In this document: in pieces, positions 1-55,690 of the stretch
How positions within the stretch are numbered: position 1 is the stretch's first letter
Layout of the letters: each line of letters begins with the position of its first letter
Assembly (NCBI GenBank): GCA_013374855.1
Contig: CP055308.1
Location: forward strand, 272,715 to 336,714
Source: Candidatus Woesebacteria bacterium
Lineage (GTDB): Bacteria; Patescibacteriota; Microgenomatia; UBA8517
Length of the DNA: 64,000 nucleotides
Direction: 5' to 3'
Translations under genes and position numbers: made by a program
Notes under the pieces: model-generated
What the model saw: only the letters and a program-made list of their open reading frames with translations
Databases searched by the model: none
Told to the model about the DNA's origin: nothing

Positions 1-33
1 CAAATCAAAAAGACAGCTTCAAAAATATCTTCT

Positions 34-4924: not shown

Positions 4925-4953
4925 TGCAATTTTATCTGTTTTAAGATTATAAT
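4925..4953 (+). promoter_or_regulatory. Sigma70-like promoter upstream of rpmH
   Basis: TTGCAA at 4925-4930, a 17-nt spacer, then TATAAT at 4948-4953, about 8 nt before the rpmH ATG region. Confidence 0.4.
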
Positions 4954-4960
4954 TTCCTCT

Positions 4961-5092: not shown

Positions 5093-5097
5093 ATTAA

Positions 5098-28820: not shown

Positions 28821-29360
28821 TCAATCTCTCTTTCTCCAGAGATCTCTTGCATCCTTAAACATTACTTCGCCTACCTCTCCCCATTTTATGTACTCCGTAA
28901 TTTTATCAGCAGGTACAAATTTCCTTTCCCATGTTTTACCACTTGCAGGATCTGGTGATTGGGGCAAAATTTCCTCAACTTCACAAATACACCTGACTTG
29001 GTAAAAGACACTCCCCTCTTGTTTGTTTGGGTTGTCTGGAAACTCAACCCTTTGTACGCCTAGGACTTTTATATTTCTAACTTTGATGTCTACCTCTTCT
29101 AATAGTTCTCTTGAGAGGGTATTTTCCACGCTTTCTCCAATTTCTGGTTTCCCACCAGGAAGTTGCCATTTATTGTCTGTTTCTTCTCTACAGATAAGAA
29201 TCTCGCCCTTTTTATTAAAACAAATACCGTAGACTTGAGTTATTGGCTTAAACCTTTCTACAGAATCTGTTTCTATCCAACTCATAGTTACTTTTTGCCC
29301 GTTAGAAACATATGATGACTTGGGGTATTTTTTCATTCTAGTTGATATTATATGGAACAC
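28821..29360 (-). CDS. NUDIX hydrolase
   Basis: Nudix box GGKPEIGESVENTLSRELLEEVDI (Gx5Ex7REUxEExGU). Confidence 0.8.
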   Translation of the reverse strand: MFHIISTRMKKYPKSSYVSNGQKVTMSWIETDSVERFKPITQVYGICFNKKGEILICREETDNKWQLPGGKPEIGESVENTLSRELLEEVDIKVRNIKVLGVQRVEFPDNPNKQEGSVFYQVRCICEVEEILPQSPDPASGKTWERKFVPADKITEYIKWGEVGEVMFKDARDLWRKRD

Positions 29361-29677
29361 AAACTAGGGTCAACTAGGGGTTTAATGATAGAATAAGTTT
29401 ACGAAATTAAAGCTCACAGTTTTTGATTTTTAAGCCTTCTTGTCAAGCTAGACACAATATAAATTTTTTGTTAAATTAGTTAAACCTAGAAAAGATTTTT
29501 TAGTTTTTTTAAACTACACTTTTTGGTTGCTTCTGAATTTTTTACTCAACGAAAGCGAGAAATAGTTTCAAAGATGCGATATAATATCGGCAGAGATTGA
29601 TGATGGGCAAAAGTGGATACAATTTGAAACATTAGAATAATGGATGTTTTAGCTATCAATTTATTTAGGTAATAACT

Positions 29678-32600
29678 ATGTTAAATAATTCTGATTTAAC
29701 ATTTATCACAAATGAAAAAGGCCAAAATCTTCTTGAGAGATTTAAGGTGTTGATTAAAGATACCGAATTTTTTGATGTTTTGGTTGGTTATTTCTACACA
29801 AGTGGTTTTTACGCGTTGTATAAATCTTTAGAAAAGGCAAAAAGGATTAGGATCCTAATTGGTATTGGTACTGGCAAAAGAACTGTAGAATTGATAGATA
29901 AGGCTAAACAATCAGAATTGCAATTTTCTCACGCGGAGACAAAAGAACATTTTTCAAATTTGCTTGTTAATGAGATGGAGAATTCACAGGATAGCAAGTC
30001 GGTGGAGGAAGGAGTAATGAAATTTTTGGAATGGTTGCAAAACGGGAAATTAGAAATAAAAGCTTACCCAACAGAAAATATCCATGCTAAGTTATACATT
30101 ATGTCCTTTGCTGAAGGGGACCGCGATGTAGGGCGAATTATTACTGGTTCAAGCAATTTTACGCAAGCTGGTTTGGTGGATAATTTTGAATTTAATGTAG
30201 AATTAAAAAATCGTGCTGATTATGAATTTGCCAAAGCTAAATTTGAGGAACTCTGGAAACATGCTGTAGATGTAAAGGATAAATATATACAAACGATCAA
30301 AGAAAGAACTTGGTTAAATAATACTATTACTCCTTATGAACTTTATCTTAAATTTCTATATGAGTATTTTAAAGATGAACTTCTTCAAACAGATGAAGTC
30401 ATCTTCAAATACGTTCCGTCAGAATTTAAACGATTAGAATATCAAGAGCAAGCAGTATTAAACGCAAAAAAAATTCTTGAAGAATACGGTGGTGTTTTTA
30501 TTTCTGATGTTGTTGGGCTTGGTAAAACTTATATTTCTGCCATGCTTGCTAATCAACTTGATGGCAGAAGTTTAGTCATAGCGCCACCAGTGCTTTTAGA
30601 AAAAGATAATCCTGGTTCCTGGCCAAATGTATTTTCTGATTTTAGAGTACCGGCAGATTTTGAATCTCTTGGCAAATTGGATTATCTCATTCGGCGCGGC
30701 ACCGAAAAATATAGGAACATTTTCATTGACGAGGCACATCGTTTCAGAACGGAGTCAAACATAACTTTCGAAAAACTAGCTCAAATTTGTCGAGGTAAAA
30801 GAATCATTCTTGTCACAGCTACCCCTTATAACAATTCTCCAAAAGATATTCTAAGTCAAATCAAACTTTTTCAAAAAACTAAGAAAAGTACAATTCCTAA
30901 TTTACCAAATTTGGAGATCTTTTTTTCCAAACTTGAAAAACGCCTCAAAAATTTGGATAGATATAAAAACAGTGCTAAATACATTGAAATCTCTAAAGAA
31001 AATGCAAAAGAAATTAGGGAGAAGGTTCTTAAATATATTATGGTAAGAAGAACTAGGACAGAGATTGAAAAATACTTCAGTGATGATTTGAAAAAACAAA
31101 ACCTAAAGTTTCCTAGAGTAGAAGACCCGGAGCCGGTTTTTTATGAGTTAGATGACGAAGAAGATAAAATATTTAATCAAACGATTGAGCTCATTACCAA
31201 AAAATTTAAGTACGCTCGCTATATGCCTTTACTTTACTATAAGGGAAAACTTACTCAACCAGAAGAACTATCTCAAAGGAATATGGGAAGATTTATGAAA
31301 ATTCTTCTGGTTAAGCGGCTGGAGAGCAGTTTTTATGCCTTTAGAAAGAGCATTGAGCGATTTATTATTTATTACGAGAAGTTTTTTAAAGAATTTGAAG
31401 AAGGTAATGTCTATGTGAGTAAAAAATATACCTACAAAATCTTTGAACTACTTGAAAATGACGATGAAGAAAAGATTCAACGCTTAATAGAAGAAGATAA
31501 AGCTAGGAAATACTCGGCTAAAGATTTTAGAAAAGAACTTAAGTTAGATTTAAAACAGGATCTGGAAACTTTAAAAGATATCCAAAAACTTTGGCAAAAT
31601 ATTAAACGTGATCCAAAACTGCTCAAATTTATTGAAATGCTTTCTTCTCATCCAATTTTAAAGAAACAGAAATTAATTATTTTTACTGAATCGAAAGAAA
31701 CTTGCGATTATCTTTATAAAAATTTAGAGAAAAAACTTCCTGATCAAGTTTTATCCTATTCAGGTACTTCAAGCACTGTTATTAGAGAGAAAGTTATTGA
31801 AAATTTTGATGCTCGAGCTCACTTTCCTAAAGATGATTACCGGATATTGATAAGTACAGAGGTTCTATCGGAAGGTGTTAACCTTCATCGTTCCAATGTG
31901 GTGATTAACTATGATATTCCATGGAACCCAACTCGATTAATGCAAAGAGTAGGTCGCATTAACCGAGTTGATACTTCTTTTGATAAAATTTATGCTTTTA
32001 ATTTTTTTCCCACCAAACAATCTAACAGTTTAATAAAACTAAAAGAAGCCGCTGAGGCAAAAATTCATACCTTTATGACTTTACTTGGCGATGATGCTAG
32101 AATTCTTACTGAAGGGGAGCCTATTGGTTCACATGAATTATTTAATCGTTTGGTTTCCAAAAAAACGATCACAGGCGAAGATGAAAAAGAGGAAAGTGAA
32201 CTTAAATATTTACGAATTATTAAAAATATCCGTGACAATAATCCTGATCTATTTTCCAAAGTTAAGCAATTACCTAAGAAAGCAAGAACTGCTAGAAAAA
32301 ATAATCAGAAATCTAATTCACTTATCACCTATTTTCGAAAAGGCAAGCTTCAAAAATTCTTTATTGTCAGTAAAAGAGAACCTCAGGAAATAGATTTTAT
32401 TTCAACAGCCAAGTTACTAGAAGCACATTCAGATACGAAGCGCGAAAAACTTGGTCAAGATTTTTATGAATTGCTTGAAAAAAACAAAAAAGCATTTGAA
32501 TTGGTGACTATTGAAGACATCCCGGAATTAAAAATGAGAGGTGGTAGAGATGCGGCAACTCAGATGTTAAAAATATTAAAAGCGTTAAAAGATTTGCGAA

Positions 32601-32860
32601 AGTTTACTGAAGATCAAGAAATTTATTTAAGAAAAGTAATAAGAGAAGTTGAAGAAGGTGGTTTGCCTAAACAAACAACTAAAAATACTCTCAAAGAATT
32701 ACAAAAAGAATTAAAGAATGGTTTAAATCCTCTAAAAATTTTAGGAGTGCTTCAAAAAAATATCCCAAGCGATTTATTAAAAGAACATATTGTTGAAAGT
32801 GCCGCTCAAACTTCCGGACCAAGAGAGGTGATTTTATCAGAATATCTAGTTAGCGCATAG
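29678..32860 (+). CDS. PLD-family (HKD) nuclease domain fused to an SNF2/SWI2-family DEAH helicase
   Basis: N-terminal HKD motif NIHAKLYIM...GSSNFTQAGL. Helicase motif I is DVVGLGKTYISA, motif II is DEAHRFR, motif III is VTATPYNN, and C-terminal motifs IV-VI include NPTRLMQRVGRINR. Confidence 0.8.
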   Translation: MLNNSDLTFITNEKGQNLLERFKVLIKDTEFFDVLVGYFYTSGFYALYKSLEKAKRIRILIGIGTGKRTVELIDKAKQSELQFSHAETKEHFSNLLVNEMENSQDSKSVEEGVMKFLEWLQNGKLEIKAYPTENIHAKLYIMSFAEGDRDVGRIITGSSNFTQAGLVDNFEFNVELKNRADYEFAKAKFEELWKHAVDVKDKYIQTIKERTWLNNTITPYELYLKFLYEYFKDELLQTDEVIFKYVPSEFKRLEYQEQAVLNAKKILEEYGGVFISDVVGLGKTYISAMLANQLDGRSLVIAPPVLLEKDNPGSWPNVFSDFRVPADFESLGKLDYLIRRGTEKYRNIFIDEAHRFRTESNITFEKLAQICRGKRIILVTATPYNNSPKDILSQIKLFQKTKKSTIPNLPNLEIFFSKLEKRLKNLDRYKNSAKYIEISKENAKEIREKVLKYIMVRRTRTEIEKYFSDDLKKQNLKFPRVEDPEPVFYELDDEEDKIFNQTIELITKKFKYARYMPLLYYKGKLTQPEELSQRNMGRFMKILLVKRLESSFYAFRKSIERFIIYYEKFFKEFEEGNVYVSKKYTYKIFELLENDDEEKIQRLIEEDKARKYSAKDFRKELKLDLKQDLETLKDIQKLWQNIKRDPKLLKFIEMLSSHPILKKQKLIIFTESKETCDYLYKNLEKKLPDQVLSYSGTSSTVIREKVIENFDARAHFPKDDYRILISTEVLSEGVNLHRSNVVINYDIPWNPTRLMQRVGRINRVDTSFDKIYAFNFFPTKQSNSLIKLKEAAEAKIHTFMTLLGDDARILTEGEPIGSHELFNRLVSKKTITGEDEKEESELKYLRIIKNIRDNNPDLFSKVKQLPKKARTARKNNQKSNSLITYFRKGKLQKFFIVSKREPQEIDFISTAKLLEAHSDTKREKLGQDFYELLEKNKKAFELVTIEDIPELKMRGGRDAATQMLKILKALKDLRKFTEDQEIYLRKVIREVEEGGLPKQTTKNTLKELQKELKNGLNPLKILGVLQKNIPSDLLKEHIVESAAQTSGPREVILSEYLVSA

Positions 32861-32863
32861 ATT

Positions 32864-35800
32864 ATGGATGAAGATGCAGCAAAAAATTTAATACGAGAAG
32901 TTTTGGAGAGTTCTTTTAATAAAGAAAAATTTATTTATTTGATAAAAAATATTTTTAACCATATTGAAAATGCCCCTTTCGTTTATAAAGGTAATCTTAT
33001 TTTTGATGACTTTGCAGATTCAATTAAGACTTTAGAACGTATAGGAAAATATAAAGACCCTGAAGATAAACTTATAGATATTCTTATTGTTCATCTTAAA
33101 AAGGAAACTACCCTTGAGCGAGCTAGAACAAAACAAAGAAATTTTATTGCTAAATATCTTAAAGGCAGCCGAGGTGATATTTTGAAAGATGCGGCGTTGG
33201 TGGCTTTTGTATCTCCAAATAATGAAGACTGGCGTTTTTCTCTTGTTAAAATGGAGTATAAGTTTAATGATAAAGGAAAGGTTAAAGAAGAATTCACACC
33301 TGCCCGCCGATATTCTTTTCTCGTTGGTAAGAATGAAAACAGCCATACAGCTCAAAGTCGCCTCTTGCCGCTCCTTTTAAATGATAAAAATAATCCCACG
33401 CTGAAAGAATTAGAGGAGTCATTCAGCGTTGAGCGCGTAACCAAGGAATTTTTTGAAAAGTATCGTGACCTATTTTTGCGAATAAAGGAATCACTTGATG
33501 CTATAGTTAAAAAAGATGCTAAAGTCCGAGCCGATTTCAAGGAAAAAAACATTAATACAGTTGATTTTACCAAAAAACTTTTAGGCCAGATTGTCTTTTT
33601 ATATTTCTTACAGAAAAAAGGTTGGTTTGGAGTTGAAAAAGACAAAGATTGGGGAACTGGCGCAAAAAACTTTTTAAGGTCACTTTTTACAAAGAAAATT
33701 GTTGATTATAAAAATTTCTTTAATGATATTTTAGAACCTCTTTTTTACGAAGCTTTAAGATACGATCGTTCTTATGATAATCATTATTTCAGCTATTTTA
33801 AATGTAAAATTCCATTCCTGAATGGCGGTTTATTTGATCCTATTAATGATTATGATTGGTCAAAAACAGAAATACTCCTGCCAAATGAGCTTTTTTCAAA
33901 CAACCAAAAAACAAAAGAGGGTGACGCCGGCGATGGTATTTTAGATGTTTTTGACCGTTACAATTTTACAGTAAAAGAAGATGAGCCGCTGGAAAAAGAA
34001 GTTGCTATAGACCCGGAAATGCTTGGGAAAGTTTTTGAAAACCTATTGGAAGTAAAAGATAGAAAATCAAAAGGTACATACTACACCCCGCGTGAAATTG
34101 TCCACTATATGTGTCAGGAAAGTTTAATAAATTATCTTTATACCTCTGTGAATGAGGAATTAATGAAAAAAGCAGTTAGACCACAGAAACAGTTAAAACT
34201 TGTTGGCAACGAAGAACCCGAACAACTCAGTCTTCGTACAAAAGAAGAATTGATAAGCAAAGAGGATTTAGAAATATTTATAAAACACGGAGAATTAATA
34301 GCAGAAAATGAAAAAGTAACGATGGTCAGGAAGGAGCATATCAAAGAAGGTAAACTTAAAAGATCGAGTTATAAATTCAAACTTTCCGGGAGTATAAGAG
34401 AAAATGCAAAACTTATAGACGATAAACTAAGAGAAATTAAAGTTTGTGATCCAACCGTCGGCTCTGGTGCCTTTCTGGTGGGAATGATGAATGAGATTGT
34501 TAAAGCAAGACAGGTATTAGAAACTTATATTCAAGCAGGCAAAACCACCTATGATTTTAAGCGTGAATGTATCGAAAAATCTCTTTATGGTGTGGACATT
34601 GATCCAGGTGCGGTAGAAATCGCCAAGCTTCGTCTCTGGCTTTCACTCATTGTGGACGAAGAGAATATTGAAAACATTAAACCCTTGCCAAATTTGGACT
34701 TTAAAATTATGCAAGGTAATAGCTTGCTATCGGAGTTTATGGGAATTGATTTTGACAAAGAATCTGATAATAAAAATGGACAACTACTTATTTCCCACAA
34801 TGACACAAATGTATTGATTGAGGAATTAAAGAGAAAAAAGAAAGAGTATCTTAATAAAGCAAGTGCAGGAGGAAAAAAGGATCTAAAACAGGAGATAGAA
34901 GATTTGATAATTAAAATCTTTGAGGGAAAACTAAAAAGACAAAAGAATGATTACTTTAGCCAAATAAAAACTATTGAAGAAAAATATAAGGTTTTGCTTA
35001 ATATAGAACAGAGAGAAAGTATTATCAAGGAAGAAAAGGAGAAATTGTATAAGGCATCAGGTTTTAATTTAGAGCAATTTGAAAAACAGCTAAGAGAATA
35101 TACTACCGGCAATAAAATCCGCCCATTTTTCCCTTGGAAACTCTATTTTGCTGAAGTCTTTCATGAAAAAGGTGGATTTGATGTGGTAATTGCCAATCCA
35201 CCGTATGTGAGCGTAAAAGAAATAATCCCCCAAGATAAAAAAACTTTTGGTCAGTTGTTTGAGACAGGCAAGGGGCGATTTAATTTATTTACTTTATTTT
35301 TAGAAAAAGGACATAAACTTCTAAGGCCTGACGGGGTGCTAACTTATATTCTCCCAGAAAGTTTATACTTCAATTTTGAATATCGCTTTATTAGAGAATA
35401 TTTGCTAAATCATTCTTCAATTTTATTCGTCAATCTTTTTTCGAGCAGGGTATTTGAAGCCGCCGTTGATACATCCGTCATCAGCTTTGCTAATAAACAA
35501 AAAAGTAACAATTCGTTTCCAGTAATTAGAGACTTAAAAAATTCTAGTTTTAAGTTATCGCAGGAAGAACTTAACCAACTTCCCTTTAAGATTTTCCCTG
35601 TAAACTTAACTCAAAAGTCCAAGCCAATTATTGATAAGTTAATCAGTAATAACTTTGACACCCTCGAAAAAATTCTAGAAATTCAGCAAGGCATTATTTA
35701 TTCCGGCCTTCCCAAAGACAAAGTCTTTTCAAATACCCAAGTCAACAAAACCTACAAGAAGATCTTGGACGGACGGGATGTCTTAAAGTGGAGAATTAAT

Positions 35801-36319
35801 TGGGAAGAAAAACAAGAAAACAGATACATACATTATTCTGATAGGTTACACCGTCCTAGGGAGGAAAGAATTTTTTTAGCGAAAGAAAAGATACTACTTC
35901 CCAGAAAGGCTACCCGAATTTTGGCTGCTTATGATAATAAGCAATATTATGCGCTTAATACAGCTTATTTATGTCTTCCTAAAAGCAAGAAGTACAACCT
36001 TAAATATGTATTGGCTTGTTTGAATTCCAAGCTAATCAATTACTTTTATTCGTCACTCTTTTTTGGGTGGCAAATAACTATTCCAGCACTCAATCTTATG
36101 CCAATCCCCGTACAAAATACCTCGGGTCAAAAACCCTTCATTGATCTCGTTGACAAAATCCTCGCTGTTACCAAAGACGACGACTATTTAGAAAACCCCG
36201 CCAAGCAAGCCAAAGTCCGCGAGTACGAAAAACAAATCGACCAACTTGTTTATAAGCTTTATGGTTTGACAGAAGAAGAGATTAAAATTATTGAAAATGA
36301 AGAAAAAAAGAAGAAATAA
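32864..36319 (+). CDS. Large gamma-class N6-adenine DNA methyltransferase (Eco57I / PglX / Type IIG-like), 1151 aa with a C-terminal TRD-like region
   Basis: Motif X is GTYYTPREIVHYM. Motif I is CDPTVGSGAFLVGM. A K/E-rich coiled-coil insertion follows, then motif IV VVIANPPYVS. Motif I before motif IV gives the gamma order. There is a 3-nt gap after the helicase gene. Confidence 0.8.
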   Translation: MDEDAAKNLIREVLESSFNKEKFIYLIKNIFNHIENAPFVYKGNLIFDDFADSIKTLERIGKYKDPEDKLIDILIVHLKKETTLERARTKQRNFIAKYLKGSRGDILKDAALVAFVSPNNEDWRFSLVKMEYKFNDKGKVKEEFTPARRYSFLVGKNENSHTAQSRLLPLLLNDKNNPTLKELEESFSVERVTKEFFEKYRDLFLRIKESLDAIVKKDAKVRADFKEKNINTVDFTKKLLGQIVFLYFLQKKGWFGVEKDKDWGTGAKNFLRSLFTKKIVDYKNFFNDILEPLFYEALRYDRSYDNHYFSYFKCKIPFLNGGLFDPINDYDWSKTEILLPNELFSNNQKTKEGDAGDGILDVFDRYNFTVKEDEPLEKEVAIDPEMLGKVFENLLEVKDRKSKGTYYTPREIVHYMCQESLINYLYTSVNEELMKKAVRPQKQLKLVGNEEPEQLSLRTKEELISKEDLEIFIKHGELIAENEKVTMVRKEHIKEGKLKRSSYKFKLSGSIRENAKLIDDKLREIKVCDPTVGSGAFLVGMMNEIVKARQVLETYIQAGKTTYDFKRECIEKSLYGVDIDPGAVEIAKLRLWLSLIVDEENIENIKPLPNLDFKIMQGNSLLSEFMGIDFDKESDNKNGQLLISHNDTNVLIEELKRKKKEYLNKASAGGKKDLKQEIEDLIIKIFEGKLKRQKNDYFSQIKTIEEKYKVLLNIEQRESIIKEEKEKLYKASGFNLEQFEKQLREYTTGNKIRPFFPWKLYFAEVFHEKGGFDVVIANPPYVSVKEIIPQDKKTFGQLFETGKGRFNLFTLFLEKGHKLLRPDGVLTYILPESLYFNFEYRFIREYLLNHSSILFVNLFSSRVFEAAVDTSVISFANKQKSNNSFPVIRDLKNSSFKLSQEELNQLPFKIFPVNLTQKSKPIIDKLISNNFDTLEKILEIQQGIIYSGLPKDKVFSNTQVNKTYKKILDGRDVLKWRINWEEKQENRYIHYSDRLHRPREERIFLAKEKILLPRKATRILAAYDNKQYYALNTAYLCLPKSKKYNLKYVLACLNSKLINYFYSSLFFGWQITIPALNLMPIPVQNTSGQKPFIDLVDKILAVTKDDDYLENPAKQAKVREYEKQIDQLVYKLYGLTEEEIKIIENEEKKKK

Positions 36320-39300
36320 AAAACGGAAAGAGTTAAAACAATTAGGAAAACTTGTCTCTTATGGCGATTTTGTATTACCTCCAGTTATACCTGGCCCTAA
36401 AGTAAAAGACCTGTGTAAGAAGATTGATAATTTTTATAAAGGTTATCCAAGGCAACATCGAAAACAAAAAGCATCTGATTTAATCCATGGGGCATTCTAT
36501 GCAGTTAGGCCAGAATGTAAATCTAATGATGACTGGATGAGCCAATCAGCAAATTCGCTACGAGACGTTCTTTATCCATTTTTTAGTGAGGAAGTTAGTA
36601 AAAATAATTTACTAAAATTGTTCAGAAAATATGCAACAGATAAACAATATCGTAAAAAAACTCAGAATTTAAAATTTATTACGACATTTAATGCTCTTTA
36701 TAAAATTTATAAACAGTTGACTGATTTGGCTCATCATGGAACCAAACTAAGTGGATTTACGGAGGAAGAATATAATAATTTTTCAAGAAACGATTTTATG
36801 AATCTTATAAATAGTTTTGTTTCTATTTTAAGAGAAGTTCTTACTTTGCAGCAAATCTATATTCATACTGTCATAGATCTAATTGTGCAAAGAAAGAGAA
36901 AAACAAAAGCCCTTAAAGAAGATTTAGAATTGCTCTCAAAAGTAAATCCTGATGCTTGCCAATACTTTTTTATCAAAGTTGACGAGCAATGGTTAGGCTG
37001 GCTGTGGAAGAATGATTTTCTGGATGTTATAAAGCAAAAAGCAGAAGATCCGACTCGTTATAGTTATCTTACTCCAGAGCTTAATTATCTTGTTCGAATG
37101 GCAGAAAAAGTTCCTGCAAAAGTTGTTAATATTATGCTTGAGGTAGAAATATCAAAAGAAAATTTTAACCCCGAAGTTGTTGATAGATTTATACAAATTT
37201 GTAGTATTCTGCCGGCTGAGCAGCTTAAAAAGATTGTTCCTAAAATTCGTGACGAGAAATGGGTTTCTTTAATGAAAGGGTTTAATCAATGGGGTTTTGA
37301 ATATGAAAAGATGTTTCAAAAATTAGCAGAGGCGAAAGATTATGAGAGTATTATCGCTTTGGCAGAAGCAATCCTTTCGGTGAAAACAAAAGAAGAGATA
37401 GAAGGATATCAAATTGTTTTTGGTGACGAGCTATTTTACTTTGATGATTTGTTTTATACAAAAGTATTTGAATATTTAGTTGCCGTAAATGATAAATATG
37501 CTGAAAAAGCATTCGGATTAGCAATAAAAGTGATGGGTAAATTAATTGGGTTATTAAATAAAGATTCTGAAGAAGAAAGAGTATTTAAATTTTATGACAG
37601 ATATATACTTTCAGATGCAGACTTCTTTAATTTAGGGATTGAACAAAGAAGTCGTTTCTCAAGAGAAGGAAATATTGAAGGGCTTGTTATAGCAATTATT
37701 GAACTTGCTAAGAGATTGATTGTTGGAAAATGTGCGCAAGAAAGAGAAGAAGTTCGTCGAATTTTTAATCAATATATTGGCGACTTTGATGATATTAATG
37801 CGCCCTTACCAGATAGTCAGGCAATGTGGCGATTGCGTCTATTTTTTTTGAGCTTGTGTCCTCAGGTTTTCAAGGAAGAATTGAAAAAATCATTTTTCCG
37901 GTTATTTGAGGTTGAAAGCTATTATGAGATTATTCAAGGTGTGGAGTATTTAGAGGCATTGCGCTCTGGTTTTTATGTTTTATCTGATCATAATAAGCGC
38001 GGTTATGTAAACCGGGTTATAGAATATTTTGTAAAAAAAGAGAAAGAAGAAGAAAAAAGTGGACATTTAGATTTTGGTTCAAAGATTCTTTCTATGATTG
38101 CAAATCATTTGACAGAAGAAGAAAAGAAAAAAGCAGAAAAAATAGGATTTGTGATTAACCAAGATATTAAACCAGAGCCTGAAGTAAAGATAGGTGGGGT
38201 TGGACATATTTTTTCTCAACCACCGTTGTCTTATGAAAGTTTCCAAAAAATAGAAGTTCCTATAATTGCTGAAAAACTGCGTTCAGAATGGTCGCCCAAA
38301 GAGATCGCTGAAAAATATAAAGAAAGGTCAGACTTTTTCAATCGCATAAACGCAGAAGGCGTTGGAGAATACCTTCAAAAAAATATATCAGAGAGACTGC
38401 AGGATTATGTTGATAATGCTTTTAGGTTTTTTGATAGGGAAAATTTGGACTCTCATTACACTTATTCTTATCTTCGTGGGATTCAGGAAACAATTAAAGA
38501 TAATCGTGAACTTGCTGCAAAAGTAGATTGGAGTGGTATTATTAATCTCTTTAAATTAATTAAAGAGTCTGGAGAAAAAAATCAATTTGAGGAAAGAAAA
38601 AGAGAAAGAGAATTTTCTAATTTTTGGTTAGCTAGTTGGAAAACAGTGCATTCTGCAATGGCGGATGTTTTAAAAGAACTGCTTTCTTCAAAAAATGACA
38701 CAGAGGTAATTAATTTTGAAAAATACCGCAATGACATTGTTTCTATTCTCAAATATCTCTTTTTATATCCTGATCCTCGTCTTGAAGATGAAAAATTAGA
38801 AACTACTGACTTAAAAACAAAATCTTCAAATGATAAAGATTATATGGTTAGCGATCCTTTTAGTATTGCTATTAATTCGGTGAGAGGAAGAGTTTTTGAA
38901 GCCTTTTTATTATTTGTTTATCAAGACAGTAAGAGGTTTAAAGAAAAAGATAAGGTAAAGATAGCCGACGATGTAAAGTCTCTTTATGAAAATGTTTTAG
39001 AAAAAGAAAACACTCGTGCCATTATGTTTTTATTTGGTTATCATCTCCCCTCTTTTTATTATCGTGATAAACTATGGATAAAAAGACTTCTGAAGGTGAT
39101 TCTCCCCGGAGAAAAGTCAAAAAAGCATCTTTATACTGCAGCTTGGGAAGGTTATTTGTCTCAAAATCTTTATAAAGAAATTTTTTTTGATTCTGATTTT
39201 CAAAAACTATATGGGCGTGGAGTTGACTTAACTGACGACGATTTTCCACCTTATCAGAAACATTTTAAAGATCCTGAAAATGCTATTGGTATTCATCTTG

Positions 39301-39917
39301 CTCTTGCTTTTATATATTTTCCGGAATTTGGTTTTGAACATAATTTATTTAAAAAATTTTGGAAAACAAAAAGACCCAAAAGCCATAAAGAATTTATATC
39401 CTTTATTGGTAATAGTTGTCTGTCAAACGAGGTGGCTGGAGATGAATGGTTTGAAAAAAATAAAATAGATAAAGGAAAGCTTATTGAATTATGGAATTGG
39501 GCATTAAAGAATGTTTCAGATCCAAAAATTTTATCTGGTTTTGGCTCTTGGATTAATCCTAATAGAGAAATTTTAGATGATAATTTTGTAGTTGAAAAAA
39601 TAGCTTTAACAATACAAAAAACTGGCGGATACATCGATTGGGATTATGGTCTTTTTATGAGGTTGCCTTTTTTTGCAGAAAAGAATAAAGGAAAAACGTT
39701 AGAAATTATTTCGAATTATTTTCTTAATTCAAAAGGTAAACTTAATCAAAACTTTCGAAAGTTTCAATTATATGAGGAAGAGATAAAAAGGGCTATGATA
39801 ATTATTTATAAAAACGGAGATGAAAAAATAAGAGAAAAAGTAAAAATCTTAATAGACACACTTATAAGAGAGGGAAGTAATATATTTTGGGGGTTAAAGG
39901 AAGTTATAGGAGATTAA
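36291..39917 (+). CDS. 1208-aa hypothetical protein, predicted all-alpha and repeat-like, with no recognisable enzymatic motifs
   Basis: It is a long uninterrupted ORF in an AT-rich genome where long ORFs are unlikely by chance. Its start overlaps the methyltransferase 3' end by about 25 nt, which suggests translational coupling. The N-terminus is basic (KKKRRNKKRKE). No Walker A, HKD, PD-(D/E)xK, HNH or HEPN motif was seen by eye. Confidence 0.55.
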   Translation: MKMKKKRRNKKRKELKQLGKLVSYGDFVLPPVIPGPKVKDLCKKIDNFYKGYPRQHRKQKASDLIHGAFYAVRPECKSNDDWMSQSANSLRDVLYPFFSEEVSKNNLLKLFRKYATDKQYRKKTQNLKFITTFNALYKIYKQLTDLAHHGTKLSGFTEEEYNNFSRNDFMNLINSFVSILREVLTLQQIYIHTVIDLIVQRKRKTKALKEDLELLSKVNPDACQYFFIKVDEQWLGWLWKNDFLDVIKQKAEDPTRYSYLTPELNYLVRMAEKVPAKVVNIMLEVEISKENFNPEVVDRFIQICSILPAEQLKKIVPKIRDEKWVSLMKGFNQWGFEYEKMFQKLAEAKDYESIIALAEAILSVKTKEEIEGYQIVFGDELFYFDDLFYTKVFEYLVAVNDKYAEKAFGLAIKVMGKLIGLLNKDSEEERVFKFYDRYILSDADFFNLGIEQRSRFSREGNIEGLVIAIIELAKRLIVGKCAQEREEVRRIFNQYIGDFDDINAPLPDSQAMWRLRLFFLSLCPQVFKEELKKSFFRLFEVESYYEIIQGVEYLEALRSGFYVLSDHNKRGYVNRVIEYFVKKEKEEEKSGHLDFGSKILSMIANHLTEEEKKKAEKIGFVINQDIKPEPEVKIGGVGHIFSQPPLSYESFQKIEVPIIAEKLRSEWSPKEIAEKYKERSDFFNRINAEGVGEYLQKNISERLQDYVDNAFRFFDRENLDSHYTYSYLRGIQETIKDNRELAAKVDWSGIINLFKLIKESGEKNQFEERKREREFSNFWLASWKTVHSAMADVLKELLSSKNDTEVINFEKYRNDIVSILKYLFLYPDPRLEDEKLETTDLKTKSSNDKDYMVSDPFSIAINSVRGRVFEAFLLFVYQDSKRFKEKDKVKIADDVKSLYENVLEKENTRAIMFLFGYHLPSFYYRDKLWIKRLLKVILPGEKSKKHLYTAAWEGYLSQNLYKEIFFDSDFQKLYGRGVDLTDDDFPPYQKHFKDPENAIGIHLALAFIYFPEFGFEHNLFKKFWKTKRPKSHKEFISFIGNSCLSNEVAGDEWFEKNKIDKGKLIELWNWALKNVSDPKILSGFGSWINPNREILDDNFVVEKIALTIQKTGGYIDWDYGLFMRLPFFAEKNKGKTLEIISNYFLNSKGKLNQNFRKFQLYEEEIKRAMIIIYKNGDEKIREKVKILIDTLIREGSNIFWGLKEVIGD

Positions 39918-40056: not shown

Positions 40057-41325
40057 ATGGATATCTTTGATAAACTTGCCAAAAATATAAAATTTAGAGT
40101 CAAAAACACGATTTTGCGCCTGAAGGCGTACTTCAAGCGGCTTATCTTTCCTCTGTATCTTTTTCCAATTAAAATTATTACCTATTCTGCCTATTACCTT
40201 ATCAAGTTTGAAGCTAAATTTATTTTTGCTTTTTTGCGTCTTTTTTTTGAGATAATTGTTTTCCCCTTCAAAAGTTTGAAAAATTTTTTGAAGTCTGTTG
40301 CTGTTGTGGTTGTGTTTGTCTATATTGTTGCCTCTCTTTTTGTTATTATTGATTATCTTTCTAATTATTATGGTGATTTAAGAAAATATTTTTGTGTTAT
40401 TGAGAGAAGCAAGCTCCAAAATTCGGTTGTTAGAGTTGTCGGCGGACATTCTGAAGGTTCTGGGTTTTTTATAGCAGAGGATCAGGTCTTGACGAATTTC
40501 CATGTAATTTCCTACGAGGTAAGTCCAAAAGTTATTTTGCCAAGTGGAGAGTTTGTGTTACCAACCAAAATAGTTGGAGACAAAAATGCCGATTTGGCGG
40601 TTATTTTTACTGAGAAAAAATTTCCGGAGATGGTTTTTAAACTACCCGACAATGTTCAGATTATTCCTGAAGAAACACTCCTTTCAATTGGATATCCTTT
40701 GGGAACAGGTCTGAGTGGTAGAGCAACAATACTTAAGGGCAAGTTCATTGACTTCAGAAAACAGCGAAGTCTGCCGGTAAGGTATTTACAGACAGATATA
40801 AATTTAGTTAAGGGAATGAGTGGAGGACCTGTTACTGATTTGTGTGGACAGGTTGTAGGAATAAACACTCTTGGCTTGGCCGGTCTTTCTTTATTTATTG
40901 TAGCTTCTGATGCGAAATCTATTATTCCGAATATGACTGATCGAGATACTGCAAAGATAGAAGTTGACCCTTCTGTTTCTCCTGAGGAGGCTGTTAGAGC
41001 CTTCTATACCTATCTTAAGGCACGAAGAATGGAAGATGGTTTTAATCTTTTGAGCAAAGAATATCTAAATAAAACCAATTTTGAAGAATGGACAAGTAGA
41101 TTTAAAGATGTTTTAGATGTTGATGTGGTTAAAGTAGAAAAATACGAGGATTCGAAGGATACAGTATTTGTGAAGTTCACAACCAAGAATTGGATTGACG
41201 GAGAGGTGGAAATGCGTTTTTATGAAGGCACTTGGCAGACAGTAAAGGAGGATGGTGTTTACAAGATGAACAAAAGCAAGATTAAAGAGATTCCAAGCCC
41301 CGATTGGTTGTGGTTTTATTTTTGA
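40057..41325 (+). CDS. Membrane-anchored trypsin-like (S1/DegP-type) serine protease with an extra C-terminal domain
   Basis: Two N-terminal TM helices. Catalytic triad context is TNFHVI (His), DLAVIF (Asp) and GMSGGPV (Ser). The C-terminal 130 aa (YEDSKDTVFVKFTTKNWIDGE...) are unassigned. Confidence 0.7.
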   Translation: MDIFDKLAKNIKFRVKNTILRLKAYFKRLIFPLYLFPIKIITYSAYYLIKFEAKFIFAFLRLFFEIIVFPFKSLKNFLKSVAVVVVFVYIVASLFVIIDYLSNYYGDLRKYFCVIERSKLQNSVVRVVGGHSEGSGFFIAEDQVLTNFHVISYEVSPKVILPSGEFVLPTKIVGDKNADLAVIFTEKKFPEMVFKLPDNVQIIPEETLLSIGYPLGTGLSGRATILKGKFIDFRKQRSLPVRYLQTDINLVKGMSGGPVTDLCGQVVGINTLGLAGLSLFIVASDAKSIIPNMTDRDTAKIEVDPSVSPEEAVRAFYTYLKARRMEDGFNLLSKEYLNKTNFEEWTSRFKDVLDVDVVKVEKYEDSKDTVFVKFTTKNWIDGEVEMRFYEGTWQTVKEDGVYKMNKSKIKEIPSPDWLWFYF

Positions 41326-41359: not shown

Positions 41360-41815
41360 ATGAAAGTTGAAGAAGCTGTTGCTTTGATTTATGAGTGTGC
41401 AAAAGAGGTTTATGCAGAGCTTGGCACGGGTTGGAACGAGTCAATATATCAATCTGCAATGGAGGTTGCTCTTCGCCATAGAGGTTTAATGTATGAGACA
41501 CAAAGAATTTTGCCAATTACTTTTAAGGGTCATGTAATTGGGGAGTCAATTCCAGATCTTGTTGTGTGGGTGGAGGAAAAGGGGGTAAAGACTGCAATTG
41601 TTATTGATTTAAAGGCAGATACTGGAATAAAAGAGGATCATGATGTTCAGGTAAAAAGATATATTCAAGAGCTCAAGAAACAGGTTCATAAAGACGAAAG
41701 TGTTTATTCGAAGGGGTACTTAATCAATTTTGTTAAAGAGTCAACCTCTAAAAGACTTGCGGAAGGAACGTATGAAGATTTTAACGGAGTGCAGATTTTG
41801 GAAGTTTTTTCTTAA
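41360..41815 (+). CDS. GxxExxY-family protein (PD-(D/E)xK-like fold family)
   Basis: GWNESIYQSAMEVAL matches the family-defining GxxExxY-Q-x-A motif. It is followed by IPDLVV ... DLK, which resembles a nuclease-fold core. Confidence 0.55.
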   Translation: MKVEEAVALIYECAKEVYAELGTGWNESIYQSAMEVALRHRGLMYETQRILPITFKGHVIGESIPDLVVWVEEKGVKTAIVIDLKADTGIKEDHDVQVKRYIQELKKQVHKDESVYSKGYLINFVKESTSKRLAEGTYEDFNGVQILEVFS

Positions 41816-54651: not shown

Positions 54652-55686
54652 TTGGGTATTAGTATTTTTTCAAAACGGGTGCTAGAATATCTAAGACTTT
54701 TCTTTTTCTTGAATATGGAATTAAATGTATTTTTGATTTTAGTAAGCATTTCTTTCTTGGTGGCTACTTTCATTATAAACAAAAAACTTTCTGAAATTCT
54801 AAAAAAATCGTCTCCTTCAGAGGAATTACTTGAGTATTTGCGCACCACCAACGCCCGTCTTGATAAGCAAAATGAATCTTTAAACATCTCAACCCGTGCA
54901 CTAAACGAGCGATTGGACAAAGCTGCTCAAGTTATATCTTCGGTTAGAGAAAGCATTGTACAAGTTAGTGAAATTGGAAGAAGCATGAAGGAACTTCAAG
55001 AATTTATCAGCTCGCCAAAGCTGAGAGGAAATTTGGGAGAACATGTTCTAAAGGAGATATTGGGTCAGTTTTTACCTAAAAATTCTTTCAATTTGCAATA
55101 TACTTTCAAGACTGGCGACAAAGTTGATGCGGCGATAAGAACGCAAGCTGGGATTGTCCCTATTGATTCAAAATTCCCGATGGAGAATTTTAGAAAAATG
55201 ATGTCGACTGAGGGCGAGGAGAAAGATCACTTTGCCAGTCTTTTTGAGAAGGATGTCAAAAAGCACATAGACACTATTTCCAAAAAGTATATTTTGACAG
55301 AGGAGGGAACGATTGATTATGCACTAATGTATATCCCATCTGAAGCTGTTTATTATGAGGTAGTTAACAATCCTTCTCTTTTTGAATATGCTTCGGAAAA
55401 AAGGGTTTTACCTGTTTCTCCAACAACTTTTTATGCATACATTAAGGCAATACTTATGAGTTTTGAAGGCCAAAAGATAGAGGAGGAGGCAAAAAGAATC
55501 CTTTTGTCCCTAAAAGCTATAAAAAGAGATTATGATAAGGTAGAGAGCGAGCTGTCTGTTTTACAAAGGCACATTGTCAATTCTTTTAATATGATAGGAA
55601 ATGTAATGTCTTCTTTTGTTCGTATGGGGCAGAAAATCAGTCTTACTCAAAGTTTGGGTGAAAAAAGAAAGGAACTGCCTTCTTGA
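54652..55686 (+). CDS. rmuC: DNA recombination protein RmuC. A more likely start is the Met at 54715, MELNVFLIL.
   Basis: N-terminal TM helix, a coiled-coil region, then the conserved RmuC C-terminal domain (GNLGEHVLKEILGQFLP ... GIVPIDSKFPMENF ... YIPSEAVYYEV). Confidence 0.75.
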   Translation: MGISIFSKRVLEYLRLFFFLNMELNVFLILVSISFLVATFIINKKLSEILKKSSPSEELLEYLRTTNARLDKQNESLNISTRALNERLDKAAQVISSVRESIVQVSEIGRSMKELQEFISSPKLRGNLGEHVLKEILGQFLPKNSFNLQYTFKTGDKVDAAIRTQAGIVPIDSKFPMENFRKMMSTEGEEKDHFASLFEKDVKKHIDTISKKYILTEEGTIDYALMYIPSEAVYYEVVNNPSLFEYASEKRVLPVSPTTFYAYIKAILMSFEGQKIEEEAKRILLSLKAIKRDYDKVESELSVLQRHIVNSFNMIGNVMSSFVRMGQKISLTQSLGEKRKELPS

Positions 55687-55690
55687 GAAT

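What the first reader, a model, noticed from the sequence alone, without database searches (positions are those of the whole stretch)
29678..39917. Three-gene operon: PLD-SNF2 helicase-nuclease + giant gamma-class N6A methyltransferase + 1208-aa unknown protein (candidate undescribed DNA-modification defence system)
Three long plus-strand genes are packed with a 3-nt gap and then an about 25-nt overlap, consistent with one operon. Gene 1 fuses an N-terminal HKD/PLD nuclease motif to a complete SNF2 DEAH translocase. Gene 2 is an 1151-aa Eco57I/PglX/Type IIG-like adenine methyltransferase (motif I then NPPY, with a C-terminal TRD-like region). Gene 3 is a 1208-aa all-alpha protein with no identifiable catalytic motif. 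An ATP-dependent translocase-nuclease next to a specificity-bearing methyltransferase is the logic of Type ISP/IIG restriction, DISARM and BREX systems. The gene content matches none of them: there is no DUF1998/DrmA-DrmB, no PglZ/BrxC/BrxL, the PLD is fused to the SNF2 protein rather than separate, and an unknown giant third component is present. The region looks like an accessory island between housekeeping genes.
Basis: partly seen in the sequence, partly recalled or inferred. Interest (0 to 1): 0.85.

Follow-up and report, generated by a model that had tools for sequence, protein, structure and literature searches.

The report
Restriction-like gene pair plus add-on
The three genes are real, but they look like two units: a widespread two-gene DNA-cutting and DNA-marking defence pair, followed by an optional add-on gene from a large uncharacterised protein family that repeatedly sits behind restriction systems.

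Summary
Three co-directional genes lie at 29678-32860, 32864-36319 and 36297-39917, with a 3-nt gap and a 23-nt overlap.

The reading as one obligate three-gene system does not hold.
- Gene 1 is a PLD/HKD nuclease fused to an SNF2 ATPase. Gene 2 is a gamma-class N6-adenine methyltransferase with a hypervariable TaqI_C recognition domain. They form an invariant pair: 38 of 38 close relatives with enough sequence keep it, and so do 4 of 4 sampled loci of a second clade.
- Gene 3 follows in only 2 of 19 close relatives. Elsewhere that slot holds Gabija, ABC ATPases, SIR2, a kinase and other genes.
- Gene 3 belongs to a large family with no annotation (2,574 clusters at 50% identity). It has an N-terminal helical bundle of about 190 aa with invariant R89 and H146-H147, which is weakly HEPN-like and pP_pnuc_1-like. 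About 1,000 aa of HEAT/ARM-like solenoid follow.
- This family sits tightly behind several kinds of restriction-modification operon, or alone. Its small N-terminal part is often a separate gene. In some loci that gene is replaced by a CHAT protease or a membrane protein.

Best reading: a restriction-modification-like core with an appended second-line sensor-effector. None of this has been tested experimentally. The locus fails the membership tests for DISARM, BREX, ARMADA and BR/Hma.

The parts
29361..29677 (+). 317-nt intergenic region upstream of gene 1; presumed promoter region of the operon
   Evidence: It lies between the divergent NUDIX gene (28821-29360, minus strand) and g1. Promoter-like hexamers occur at 29449-29477 and 29614-29641 (9 of 12 matches each), but such sites are no more frequent here than in shuffled sequence. 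The role is inferred, not shown.
29678..32860 (+). Gene 1: PLD/HKD nuclease fused to an SNF2-type ATP-dependent translocase (1060 aa)
   Evidence: Pfam PLDc_2, SNF2-rel_dom, ResIII and Helicase_C. Best PADLOC hit is C3a139 'HKD+Snf2' at 4.5e-43, then DrmD at 1.7e-34. Catalytic residues are invariant in 68 homologues. At least 567 close relatives occur in metagenomes. Full-length match to phrog_26785 at 1018 bits.
29774..30256 (+). PLD/HKD nuclease domain of gene 1 (aa 33-193), with a single HxK...GSxN motif
   Evidence: PLDc_2 at 4.7e-10 and RE_NgoFVII at 2e-6. H136, K138 and G157-S-S-N160 are invariant. One motif per chain implies dimerisation to build an active site. That inference comes from what is known of Nuc and BfiI.
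30440..31969 (+). SNF2 ATPase core of gene 1 (lobe 1 with GLGKT and DEAH; lobe 2 is Helicase_C)
   Evidence: PDB sequence hits to RapA, Chd1 and a Sulfolobus SNF2 protein are confined to lobe 2.
32864..36319 (+). Gene 2: gamma-class N6-adenine DNA methyltransferase with a conserved N-terminal region and a variable C-terminal recognition domain (1151 aa)
   Evidence: Pfam Eco57I at 2.8e-31, TaqI_C at 2.3e-22 and N6_Mtase. PADLOC REase_MTase_IIG PDLC03596 at 891 bits. In 39 homologues, aa 1-430 are conserved (0.7-0.8 per column), the methyltransferase motifs are invariant, and aa 800-1100 are variable (0.33-0.45).
34412..35515 (+). Methyltransferase catalytic region of gene 2 (aa 517-884), with motif I DPTVGSGAF and motif IV NPPY separated by a coiled-coil-like insert
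   Evidence: The closest solved structures by sequence are M.TaqI and BREX PglX/BrxX, over the NPPY region only.
35759..36085 (+). TaqI_C-type target recognition domain of gene 2 (aa 966-1074)
   Evidence: Pfam TaqI_C. This is the least conserved part of the protein among 39 homologues, consistent with diversifying sequence specificity.
36297..39917 (+). Gene 3: member of a large unannotated family (1206 aa from the ATG); a facultative add-on module
   Evidence: No hit in Pfam, PADLOC, NCBIfam or PHROGs. 291 or more homologues by word-index search. 2,574 representative clusters at E<=1e-3. It overlaps the end of g2 by 23 nt.
36297..36881 (+). N-terminal helical-bundle domain of gene 3 (aa 1-195); candidate effector (HEPN-like / pP_pnuc_1-like)
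36882..39914 (+). HEAT/ARM-like alpha-solenoid body of gene 3 (aa 196-1206); candidate sensor or scaffold

Best explanation
The block is a composite of two modules that are probably transcribed together.

Module A is g1 plus g2 (29678-36319). It is a two-gene, ATP-dependent, restriction-modification-like system.
- g2 methylates adenine at a sequence set by its fast-evolving TaqI_C recognition domain. This marks host DNA and provides sequence recognition.
- g1 is an SNF2 translocase with one PLD/HKD nuclease motif per chain. It is expected to act on unmethylated sites through g2, move along DNA using ATP, dimerise or collide, and cut foreign DNA. This is how Type I, III and ISP enzymes and the PLD-plus-helicase enzymes NgoAVII and CglI work.
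- Shown: domains, intact catalytic residues, strict co-occurrence, and a variable recognition domain.
- Inferred: physical coupling of g1 and g2, cleavage of unmethylated DNA, and anti-phage activity.

Module B is g3 (36297-39917). It is a facultative add-on from a large uncharacterised family. A constant HEAT-like solenoid of about 1,000 aa (sensor or scaffold) is joined or paired with a small swappable effector. Here the effector is a helical, HEPN-like domain carrying R89, H146 and H147.
- I propose that it is a second-line defence module riding on the restriction operon. The solenoid would detect a phage protein or disabled restriction machinery, and the effector would then be released, as with PrrC and EcoprrI.
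- Shown: the fold, the modular split, the replacement of the small partner gene, and repeated tight linkage to different restriction-modification operons.
- Inferred: defence function, sensing and nuclease activity.
For: Module A:
- Catalytic residues of the PLD, SNF2 and methyltransferase parts are intact and invariant.
- g1 is followed by a g2-like methyltransferase in all 38 close-relative loci with at least 3.5 kb downstream, and in 4 of 4 sampled loci of a second HKD-SNF2 clade.
- The recognition-domain region is the most variable part of g2.
- The N-terminus of g2 has no conserved PD-(D/E)xK residues, so g1 is the likely nuclease.
- g1 and g2 are distantly related to DrmD/BrxHII and DrmMI/PglX.

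Module B:
- The slot downstream of g2 is hypervariable and is filled with known defence genes. These include GajA+GajB, ABC/SMC-like ATPases, SIR2_2, UvrD, a radical SAM protein and Hsp70-TPR. A Ser/Thr kinase also occurs there.
- Among 68 co-directional upstream partners of g3 homologues, methyltransferases and helicases dominate: Eco57I 17, ResIII 17, N6_Mtase 14, SNF2 9, PLDc_2 8, N6_N4 5.
- 22 of 55 loci have a methyltransferase upstream on the same strand, or about 24 counting L001/L006-type loci missed by the search window. They belong to at least three system types.
- Junctions with the upstream gene are mostly -4 to +10 nt.
- In 4 loci the small partner gene is a CHAT protease instead (up to 33 bits). 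In 6 loci it is a protein of about 205-240 aa; four of the six show a hydrophobic, TM-like N-terminal stretch by eye, which was not tested with a predictor. In 2 loci it is fused to an FRG domain.
- One g3 pair lies next to a CBASS system.

Background from papers: HEPN proteins linked to restriction-modification systems and the PrrC analogy (PMC3710099); defence genes embedded in or appended to such systems, in the same orientation (10.1101/2024.01.29.577857).
Against: - There is no experimental evidence for any step.
- PADLOC's best model for g2 is labelled Type IIG (891 bits), so g2 might cut DNA on its own.
- 32 of 55 g3 loci show no restriction-modification partner by my detection, so linkage is frequent but not a rule.
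- HEAT-like solenoids are generic, and the fold alone does not show sensing.
- My gene calling in the loci was a crude longest-ORF procedure, so the counts are approximate.
Confidence: 0.6

Rival explanations
1. One reading: g1, g2 and g3 are obligate subunits of one three-component modification-dependent defence system. g3 would be a structural or regulatory subunit, playing the role of BrxC, DUF499 or DrmA/B.
For: The packing is tight, with a 23-nt overlap between g2 and g3. The same triad order with abutting genes recurs in L001, L006, L024, L053 and L108. It also recurs with g1/g2 only about 30% identical in L014, L032, L047, L066, L076, L085 and L171.
Against: Only 2 of 19 close g1-g2 loci carry g3, and 0 of 4 in the second clade. 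The third position is hypervariable. g3 occurs without any HKD-SNF2 gene in about 46 of 55 loci, and behind unrelated restriction-modification types. Triad-linked g3 copies are not monophyletic. g3 has no NTPase motif.
Confidence: 0.1
2. g2 is a self-contained Type IIG restriction-modification enzyme, and g1 is a separate stand-alone nuclease-helicase defence gene that merely lies next to it.
For: PADLOC REase_MTase_IIG PDLC03596 matches g2 at 2.6e-268, including aa 1-630. Other members of the Eco57I/TaqI_C family near g3 homologues do carry an HSDR_N-type nuclease domain (L012).
Against: g1 and g2 co-occur strictly in two divergent clades, often with overlapping stop and start codons. No conserved acidic or lysine residues are compatible with PD-(D/E)xK in g2 aa 1-130 across 39 homologues. 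The 'IVHLK' stretch is not conserved. No MmeI_N or other nuclease Pfam domain was found.
Confidence: 0.1
3. g3 is not an immune gene. It would be a scaffold or a mobile-element function (for example element maintenance or anti-defence) that lands in the same variable regions as restriction-modification genes.
For: No enzymatic domain is established. 32 of 55 loci have no detected upstream restriction-modification partner. Serine recombinases occur nearby in 8 loci and ParB-methyltransferase or orphan N6_N4 methylases in 14. Some copies lie in apparent mobile elements with TraG or an integrase.
Against: It is almost absent from viral and plasmid collections: 2 of 2.9 million viral contigs, no phage record, and only a weak partial hit in Legionella plasmids. 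Replacement of the partner gene by CHAT, a hydrophobic-N-terminus protein or an FRG fusion is a hallmark of conflict systems. It is co-oriented with restriction-modification genes and overlaps them.
Confidence: 0.15
4. g3 is a DNA-binding accessory of the methyltransferase, for example a HEAT-like-repeat reader or loader of DNA in the manner of AlkC/AlkD. It would tune modification or restriction rather than act as an independent effector.
For: The commonest partners are methyltransferases. HEAT-like repeats can bind DNA (my knowledge of AlkD). Conserved polar motifs lie inside the solenoid.
Confidence: 0.05

Closest known systems
Type-2 BREX-related (BR) / Hma systems (PMC12839542; Payne et al.)
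   Same: The helicase has the same architecture: an N-terminal HKD endonuclease fused to a Swi2/Snf2 helicase. It is paired with an N6-adenine methyltransferase in a restriction-modification-like operon that often carries embedded or appended defence genes.
   Different: BR/Hma is defined by a DUF499 AAA+ ATPase, a methyltransferase with a DUF1156 N-terminus and an internal recognition-domain insert, and (for Type 2) a DUF3780 gene. None of these is present. g2 is an Eco57I/TaqI_C gamma-class enzyme. The PADLOC HmaA hit is only 1.7e-23, over the helicase C-lobe.
DISARM class 1 (DrmD SNF2 + DrmMI + DrmA/DrmB + DrmC PLD) and ARMADA (ArmA/ArmB + YprA-like ArmC)
   Same: An SNF2/RapA-like helicase lies next to a PglX-like N6A methyltransferase, and a PLD nuclease domain is part of the system. 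g1 hits DrmD and DrmC models, and g2 hits DrmMI.
   Different: No YprA-family helicase or DUF1998 (DrmA/DrmB/ArmC) was found among the scanned ORFs of the window. The PLD is fused to the SNF2 protein. NCBIfam DISARM_DrmD scores 131.8 bits against a cut-off of 610.
Type ISP (LlaGI/LlaBIII), Type III, and the PLD-plus-helicase enzymes NgoAVII/CglI
   Same: They share the working logic: a methyltransferase with a recognition domain sets specificity, an SF2 ATPase translocates on DNA, and a nuclease cuts unmodified DNA. NgoAVII and CglI also use a PLD nuclease that depends on an ATPase partner (g1 hits RE_NgoFVII).
   Different: Type ISP is a single polypeptide with an Mrr nuclease. Type III uses a beta-class Mod subunit and a PD-ExK Res subunit. 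In NgoAVII/CglI the PLD sits on a separate B3-domain protein with a C5 methyltransferase. This comparison is from my own knowledge and was not tested here.
PrrC-EcoprrI, RloC and other HEPN proteins linked to restriction-modification systems (PMC3710099); defence genes embedded in such systems (10.1101/2024.01.29.577857)
   Same: An accessory effector gene is co-oriented with, and tightly linked to, a restriction-modification operon. Linkage to many different system types suggests a backup or guard role. The N-domain is helical and weakly HEPN-like.
   Different: g3 has no ABC ATPase and no Rx4-6H motif. Its bulk is a solenoid of about 1,000 aa that none of these has. It is appended at the 3' end rather than embedded.
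Avs/STAND-type and TPR-CHAT-type sensor-effector proteins
   Different: There is no NTPase or STAND module (no Walker A), so a nucleotide-driven oligomerisation switch cannot be assumed.

Membership tests
DISARM (class 1) | DrmA (YprA-like helicase) and DrmB (DUF1998) core genes in the locus | tested here: not met
   Pfam scans of the 10 flanking ORFs and the 10 largest other ORFs of the window found only housekeeping families. g3 has no helicase or DUF1998 hit. Smaller ORFs elsewhere in the window were not scanned.
DISARM (class 1) | DrmD-type SNF2 helicase and DrmMI methyltransferase at family level | tested here: not met
   NCBIfam DISARM_DrmD scores 131.8 bits against a cut-off of 610, and DrmD_b scores 61 against 950. 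PADLOC DrmD at 1.7e-34 and DrmMI at 7e-33 are partial hits only. The genes are homologous, not members.
BREX (types 1-6) | PglZ phosphatase and BrxC ATPase present | tested here: not met
   No PglZ or BrxC hit in the three genes or among the scanned window ORFs.
BREX (types 1-6) | PglX-family methyltransferase above the family cut-off | tested here: not met
   NCBIfam BREX_1_MTaseX scores 108.9 bits against a cut-off of 500. The BREX_6 and BREX_2 models are also far below their cut-offs.
BREX-related (BR) / Hma, Type 2 | DUF499 AAA+ ATPase (HmaC) | tested here: not met
   g3 has no Pfam or PADLOC hit and no Walker A motif. Its fold is an all-alpha solenoid, not an AAA+ fold.
BREX-related (BR) / Hma, Type 2 | Methyltransferase with a DUF1156 N-terminal domain, and a stand-alone DUF3780 gene | tested here: not met
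   g2 hits Eco57I, TaqI_C and N6_Mtase only. No DUF3780 was found in the flanks. Definitions are from PMC12839542.
BREX-related (BR) / Hma, Type 2 | Helicase with an N-terminal HKD endonuclease fused to Swi2/Snf2 | tested here: met
   PLDc_2 at aa 33-193 plus an SNF2 core, with invariant catalytic residues.
ARMADA | YprA-like helicase ArmC with DUF1998 | tested here: not met
   Absent from the locus and from the scanned ORFs of the window. Definition from 10.1101/2025.09.15.676423.
Type IIG restriction-modification enzyme | Methyltransferase and target recognition domain in one polypeptide | tested here: met
   Eco57I and N6_Mtase plus TaqI_C. PADLOC REase_MTase_IIG at 891 bits.
Type IIG restriction-modification enzyme | Endonuclease domain in the same polypeptide | tested here: inconclusive
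   No nuclease Pfam domain. No conserved D...(D/E)xK residues in aa 1-130 across 39 homologues. The structure of the conserved N-terminal region (about 430 aa) was not predicted, so a cryptic nuclease fold is not excluded.
HEPN superfamily (g3 N-domain) | Rx4-6H catalytic motif in a four-helix up-down bundle | tested here: not met
Pfam PF18165 pP_pnuc_1 (predicted pPIWI-associating nuclease) | Score above the Pfam gathering threshold (26.3 bits) | tested here: inconclusive
   The window domain gives no hit. 13 of 25 homologous domains give sub-threshold hits, the best at E 6e-4. One homologue, P0251, scores 26.6 bits in an N-terminal extension. No profile-profile comparison was available.
STAND / Avs-type NLR-like immune proteins (g3) | Central STAND NTPase with Walker A and B motifs | tested here: not met
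   No P-loop motif, no NTPase Pfam hit, and an all-helical model.

The most novel reading that the evidence does not exclude
The g3 family would be a previously unrecognised class of prokaryotic immune module that lacks an NTPase. A HEAT-like solenoid sensor of about 1,000 aa is paired or fused with interchangeable effectors: a helical nuclease-like domain, a CHAT protease, a protein with a hydrophobic N-terminus, or an FRG fusion. The family is concentrated in CPR/Patescibacteria, Caldilineaceae and Nitrospirales. It would act as a guard of diverse restriction-modification systems, firing when the restriction machinery is neutralised by phage. In parallel, the HKD-SNF2 plus Eco57I-type methyltransferase pair would be a very abundant but unnamed minimal relative of DISARM and BR systems, and a platform for such cargo.
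Probability: 0.35. Interest if true: 0.8.

Novelty: new variant of a known kind. Interest (0 to 1): 0.6.

Why it matters
Three reasons.

1. The analysis separates a conserved two-gene core from its variable cargo. The core is an HKD-SNF2 nuclease-translocase plus a gamma-class methyltransferase. It has thousands of relatives, and two divergent clades keep the pair. It looks like the minimal form of the SNF2 plus PglX-like module shared by DISARM, ARMADA, BREX-3 and BR/Hma. That makes it a simple model for how such pairs distinguish self from non-self and cut DNA.

2. It brings to light a large protein family with no annotation (2,574 clusters at 50% identity). The family shows the typical signatures of conflict systems: split and fused forms, replacement of the small partner gene, and tight linkage to several restriction-modification types. 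If it is an immune sensor without an NTPase, that would be a new design. It would also be one of the few defence candidates that are typical of CPR bacteria, which are thought to be poor in known defence systems.

3. The locus is a clear case of defence cargo appended to a restriction-modification operon. This supports the use of 'guilt by embedding or appending' to find new systems.

Tried and rejected
- DISARM, BREX, ARMADA and BR/Hma membership were all rejected on their defining genes.
- g3 as a diverged DUF499/BrxC ATPase was rejected. It has no P-loop and an all-alpha solenoid fold.
- A sequence search of the g3 profile against PDB gave only chance DnaJ hits with E>0.3.
- tblastn of g3 against phage records found nothing. 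Against plasmids it found only a weak partial hit in IS-disrupted Legionella plasmid genes, which was uninformative.
- The IMG/VR scan gave 2 loci only.
- The BFVD fold search gave nothing meaningful, with TM-scores of 0.18 or less among the significant and top-ranked hits.
- The afdb50 Foldseek library was not available, so no comparison with predicted structures was made.
I rebuilt it as A4 from window and database proteins.
- I could not name the source organism. Exact look-ups returned no names. A CPR/Patescibacteria origin is inferred only from the 802-kb contig, the roughly 33% G+C content and the taxonomy of g3 relatives.
- Promoter and terminator scans were no better than shuffled sequence, so the operon structure rests on gene packing alone.
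- A putative PD-(D/E)xK 'IVHLK' stretch in the g2 N-terminus was rejected as an active site because it is not conserved.

Full report
**1.

Three plus-strand ORFs occupy 29678-32860 (1060 aa), 32864-36319 (1151 aa) and 36291/36297-39917 (1208 aa from TTG, 1206 aa from ATG). The g1/g2 gap is 3 nt. The g2/g3 overlap is 23 nt if the ATG is used, as in the public gene call.

- g1 carries Pfam PLDc_2 (aa 33-193), SNF2/ResIII and Helicase_C. Its motifs are H136-x-K138 ... G157-S-S-N160, GLGKT at 280-284 and DEAH at 351-354. All are invariant in 68 homologues.
- g2 carries Eco57I, N6_Mtase and MmeI_Mtase hits plus TaqI_C. Motif I (DPTVGSGAF) comes before NPPY, which is the gamma-class order.
- g3 matches nothing in Pfam, PADLOC, NCBIfam or PHROGs.

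The flanks are housekeeping genes. GroEL, an M23 peptidase and a NUDIX protein lie upstream. A trypsin-like peptidase, a PDDEXK_3 protein, a cytochrome-b5-like protein, a Mur ligase and tRNA-Cys lie downstream. The other large ORFs of the window encode DnaA, LeuRS, an AddA-like helicase-nuclease, UvrD and similar proteins. None of the scanned ORFs encodes DrmA/B, PglZ, BrxC or DUF499. G+C is slightly lower across the block, at 0.30-0.34 against 0.35-0.39 in the flanks.

**2. g1-g2 is the conserved unit**

A metagenome scan with g1 found at least 567 relatives. The best 80 are 57-81% identical.

- In every one of the 38 loci with at least 3.5 kb downstream, g1 is followed by a g2-like methyltransferase. 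Sometimes one to three small genes are inserted between them.
- Only 2 of the 19 loci with at least 7.5 kb downstream carry a g3 homologue, and one of those is on the other strand.
- The genes after g2 are almost all singletons on clustering. The large ones are recognisable defence genes: GajA+GajB (Gabija), several AAA_23/SMC-like ATPases (one with a PHP domain), Hsp70+TPR, UvrD, radical SAM+GMT-wHTH and SIR2_2.
- A second HKD-SNF2 clade, about 30% identical to g1, has more than 6,000 hits at E<=1e-50. It shows the same pattern in 4 of 4 sampled contexts: HKD-SNF2 plus an Eco57I-type methyltransferase. An SLFN/HATPase gene or a PDDEXK_3 gene is embedded between them in some loci. An ABC ATPase or a Ser/Thr kinase follows in others. 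None has g3.

Among 39 g2 homologues, the N-terminal 430 aa and the catalytic motifs are conserved. The region 800-1100, which holds the recognition domain, is the most variable. This is what is expected when sequence specificity diversifies. No conserved PD-(D/E)xK-type residues occur at the g2 N-terminus. The PLD domain of g1 is therefore the likely nuclease of the pair. g1 also has a full-length PHROG counterpart of unknown function (phrog_26785, 1018 bits). This means the family also occurs in phages or prophages.

**3. g3 is a separate, mobile module**

The family is large. A word-index search gave 291 or more hits. An exhaustive profile search gave 2,574 clusters at 50% identity with E<=1e-3, of which 541 have E<=1e-30. 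Members come mostly from Patescibacteria/CPR genomes assembled from metagenomes. Others come from Caldilineaceae, Nitrospirales, Omnitrophota and other groups.

The protein comes in two forms. In the fused form (about 1150-1200 aa) it is one gene. In the split form, a small gene precedes a gene of about 1000 aa.
- 61 of 83 loci are split.
- In 57 of 58 split loci the upstream gene is co-directional.
- The gaps are mostly -4 to +10 nt.

Structure:
- The AlphaFold2 model of the window protein is confident (pLDDT 87.6, pTM 0.70) and entirely helical.
- The N-terminal ~190 aa form a separate helical bundle (pLDDT 80.6) with invariant N77, D79, Q83, R89, H146 and H147.
- 13 of 25 homologous domains give weak hits to Pfam pP_pnuc_1.
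- The domain lacks the Rx4-6H motif.

I therefore call it HEPN-like and a candidate nuclease, no more than that.

**4. Context of the g3 family**

Among 68 larger co-directional upstream genes, DNA methyltransferases and SF2 helicases dominate: Eco57I 17, ResIII 17, N6_Mtase 14, SNF2 9, PLDc_2 8, N6_N4 5 and C5 2.

Of 55 loci with at least 6 kb upstream, the script counted 22 with a methyltransferase on the same strand upstream. The number is about 24 if L001/L006-type loci outside the 8-kb search window are included. They break down as follows:
- about 9 have an HKD-SNF2 gene plus a methyltransferase (counting L001 and L006);
- 6 have an N6_N4 methyltransferase plus a ResIII helicase, which is Type III-like;
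- about 9 have a methyltransferase only, including true Type IIG-like enzymes with an HSDR_N nuclease.

The other 32 loci have no detected partner. Other neighbours include CBASS, an Mrr-type nuclease, serine recombinases and ParB-methylases.

The small upstream gene is g3-N-like in about 39 loci. In other loci it differs:
- In 4 loci it is a CHAT protease. All four hit the CHAT model, and two exceed the Pfam threshold.
- In 6 loci it is a protein of about 205-240 aa. Four of the six show a hydrophobic, TM-like N-terminal stretch by eye. I did not run a transmembrane predictor.
- In 2 loci the g3-N domain is fused to an FRG domain.

In a neighbour-joining tree of 82 solenoid sequences, the copies linked to HKD-SNF2/methyltransferase pairs are scattered among copies from other contexts. 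The tree is crude, but the scattering is extensive. The association has therefore formed or dissolved many times.

g3 is essentially absent from phage and plasmid collections. It occurs in 2 of 2.9 million viral contigs, and both of those are again triads behind restriction-modification-like pairs.

**5. Interpretation**

Module A (g1+g2) is best explained as a minimal ATP-dependent restriction-modification-like system.
- g2 methylates and recognises a specific site.
- g1 translocates and cuts unmethylated DNA with its PLD domain. That domain has one HKD-type motif per chain and so must pair up to form an active site.

This follows from the intact motifs, the strict co-occurrence and the variable recognition domain. 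It also rests on established knowledge of Type I, III and ISP enzymes and of the PLD-plus-ATPase enzymes NgoAVII and CglI.

Module B (g3) is best explained as a second-line sensor-effector that rides on restriction operons. The solenoid is the constant part and the small N-terminal module is the replaceable output. Two published ideas fit this reading:
- many HEPN clades are linked to restriction-modification systems and may act like PrrC with EcoprrI (PMC3710099);
- defence genes are embedded in or appended to such multi-gene systems in the same orientation (10.1101/2024.01.29.577857).

What g3 senses, and whether its N-domain cuts RNA or DNA, is unknown.

**6. Comparison with known systems**

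The closest described architecture for g1 is the HKD-Swi2/Snf2 helicase of Type-2 BR (Hma-like) systems. Those systems require a DUF499 ATPase, a DUF1156-type methyltransferase and a DUF3780 gene, and all three are absent here (PMC12839542).

DISARM class 1 and ARMADA share the SNF2 plus PglX-like pair, but they require a YprA/DUF1998 helicase. Family-level scores are far below the cut-offs: DrmD 132 bits against 610, and PglX 109 against 500.

PADLOC would label g2 as Type IIG (891 bits). Its best hit for g1 is a candidate model, 'HKD+Snf2' (146 bits). It has no model for g3. The locus is therefore not a member of any named multi-gene system that I could test. Its core is a variant of a known kind, and the concept of an appended accessory gene is also known.

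**7. Verdict**

The restriction-like logic and the lack of membership in named systems are right. The obligate triad is wrong.
- Novelty: a new variant of a known kind. It includes a truly uncharacterised protein family whose conflict-system signatures deserve experiments.
- Interest: 0.6.

Main caveats:
- Everything here is computational.
- Gene calling in the comparison loci was a simple longest-ORF procedure, so counts are approximate.
- The nuclease assignment of the g3 N-domain is weak.
- The afdb50 structure library was unavailable.

Noticed in passing
window 3447-4835 (minus strand) and about 1-6000: A dnaA gene (Bac_DnaA, DnaA_N and Bac_DnaA_C) lies where the GC skew changes sign from negative to positive, at about 4-5 kb. 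The window probably contains the chromosomal replication origin. The defence block lies about 25 kb from it and is co-oriented with the positive-skew arm.
   Followed up: partly
window 40057-41325 and 41360-41815 (plus strand): Directly downstream of g3, on the same strand, are a trypsin-like peptidase (Trypsin_2, no PDZ domain found) and a small PDDEXK_3 nuclease-family gene. A PDDEXK_3 gene is embedded between the HKD-SNF2 and methyltransferase genes in L178. The accessory island may therefore extend to about 41.8 kb.
   Followed up: partly
L001 4927-6156; L006 4923-5984; L173 12380-13804; L178 6253-6633; L174 1999-4354: Genes are embedded between the HKD-SNF2 and methyltransferase genes of homologous pairs. 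They are AAA_14/DUF4143, Fic, SLFN_AlbA_2+HATPase_c_4 and PDDEXK_3. The same AAA_14/DUF4143 plus Fic cassette also sits next to a Type I restriction-modification system in L174. This is the 'embedded defence gene' pattern.
   Followed up: partly
L175 15803-20444 (also L176, L177): A Ser/Thr protein kinase gene overlaps the stop codon of the g2-like methyltransferase. It is followed by a C5 DNA methylase, an HATPase_c_3 protein and a Vsr endonuclease. The locus lies in an apparent mobile element with a TrwB-like ATPase and an HTH regulator. It is another kind of cargo behind the same core.
   Followed up: no
L002 1911-7326: In an Omnitrophota genome assembled from a metagenome, a split g3 pair (236 aa plus 1012 aa) lies immediately after a CBASS operon (CD-NTase plus Cap15). 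It is next to a resolvase and a TraG-like gene, and no restriction-modification genes are present.
   Followed up: partly
L029 8725-9846; L038 9377-10501; L001 13283-14488: In Caldilineaceae loci an FRG domain is fused to the N-terminus of the g3-N-like small protein. An FRG+TPR protein lies just downstream of g3 in L001. The role of the FRG domain here is unexplained.
   Followed up: no
P0121, P0251 (g3 homologues of 1313 and 1293 aa): Some g3 homologues carry an extra N-terminal extension of about 150-180 aa. It hits Pfam pP_pnuc_1 by itself (P0251 at 5e-6, 26.6 bits). The helical N-domain may therefore be duplicated in these proteins.
   Followed up: partly
window 55616-58612 and 60408-62291: The window also encodes an AddA-like UvrD helicase fused to a PDDEXK_1 nuclease (998 aa) and a second UvrD/PcrA-type helicase (627 aa, minus strand). 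These are probably housekeeping repair genes and not part of the finding.
   Followed up: no
window 8750-11680: A 976-aa protein whose only recognisable part is a DUF4012 domain at aa 565-703. Its function is unknown.
   Followed up: no
L089 (Legionella pneumophila plasmid NZ_CP016871.1, 11428-13797): A 789-aa hypothetical protein flanked by IS3 and IS256 transposases is the only hit to g3 in a cultured organism's plasmid (23% identity over g3 aa 635-1109). It may be a very distant or truncated relative of the solenoid.
   Followed up: no
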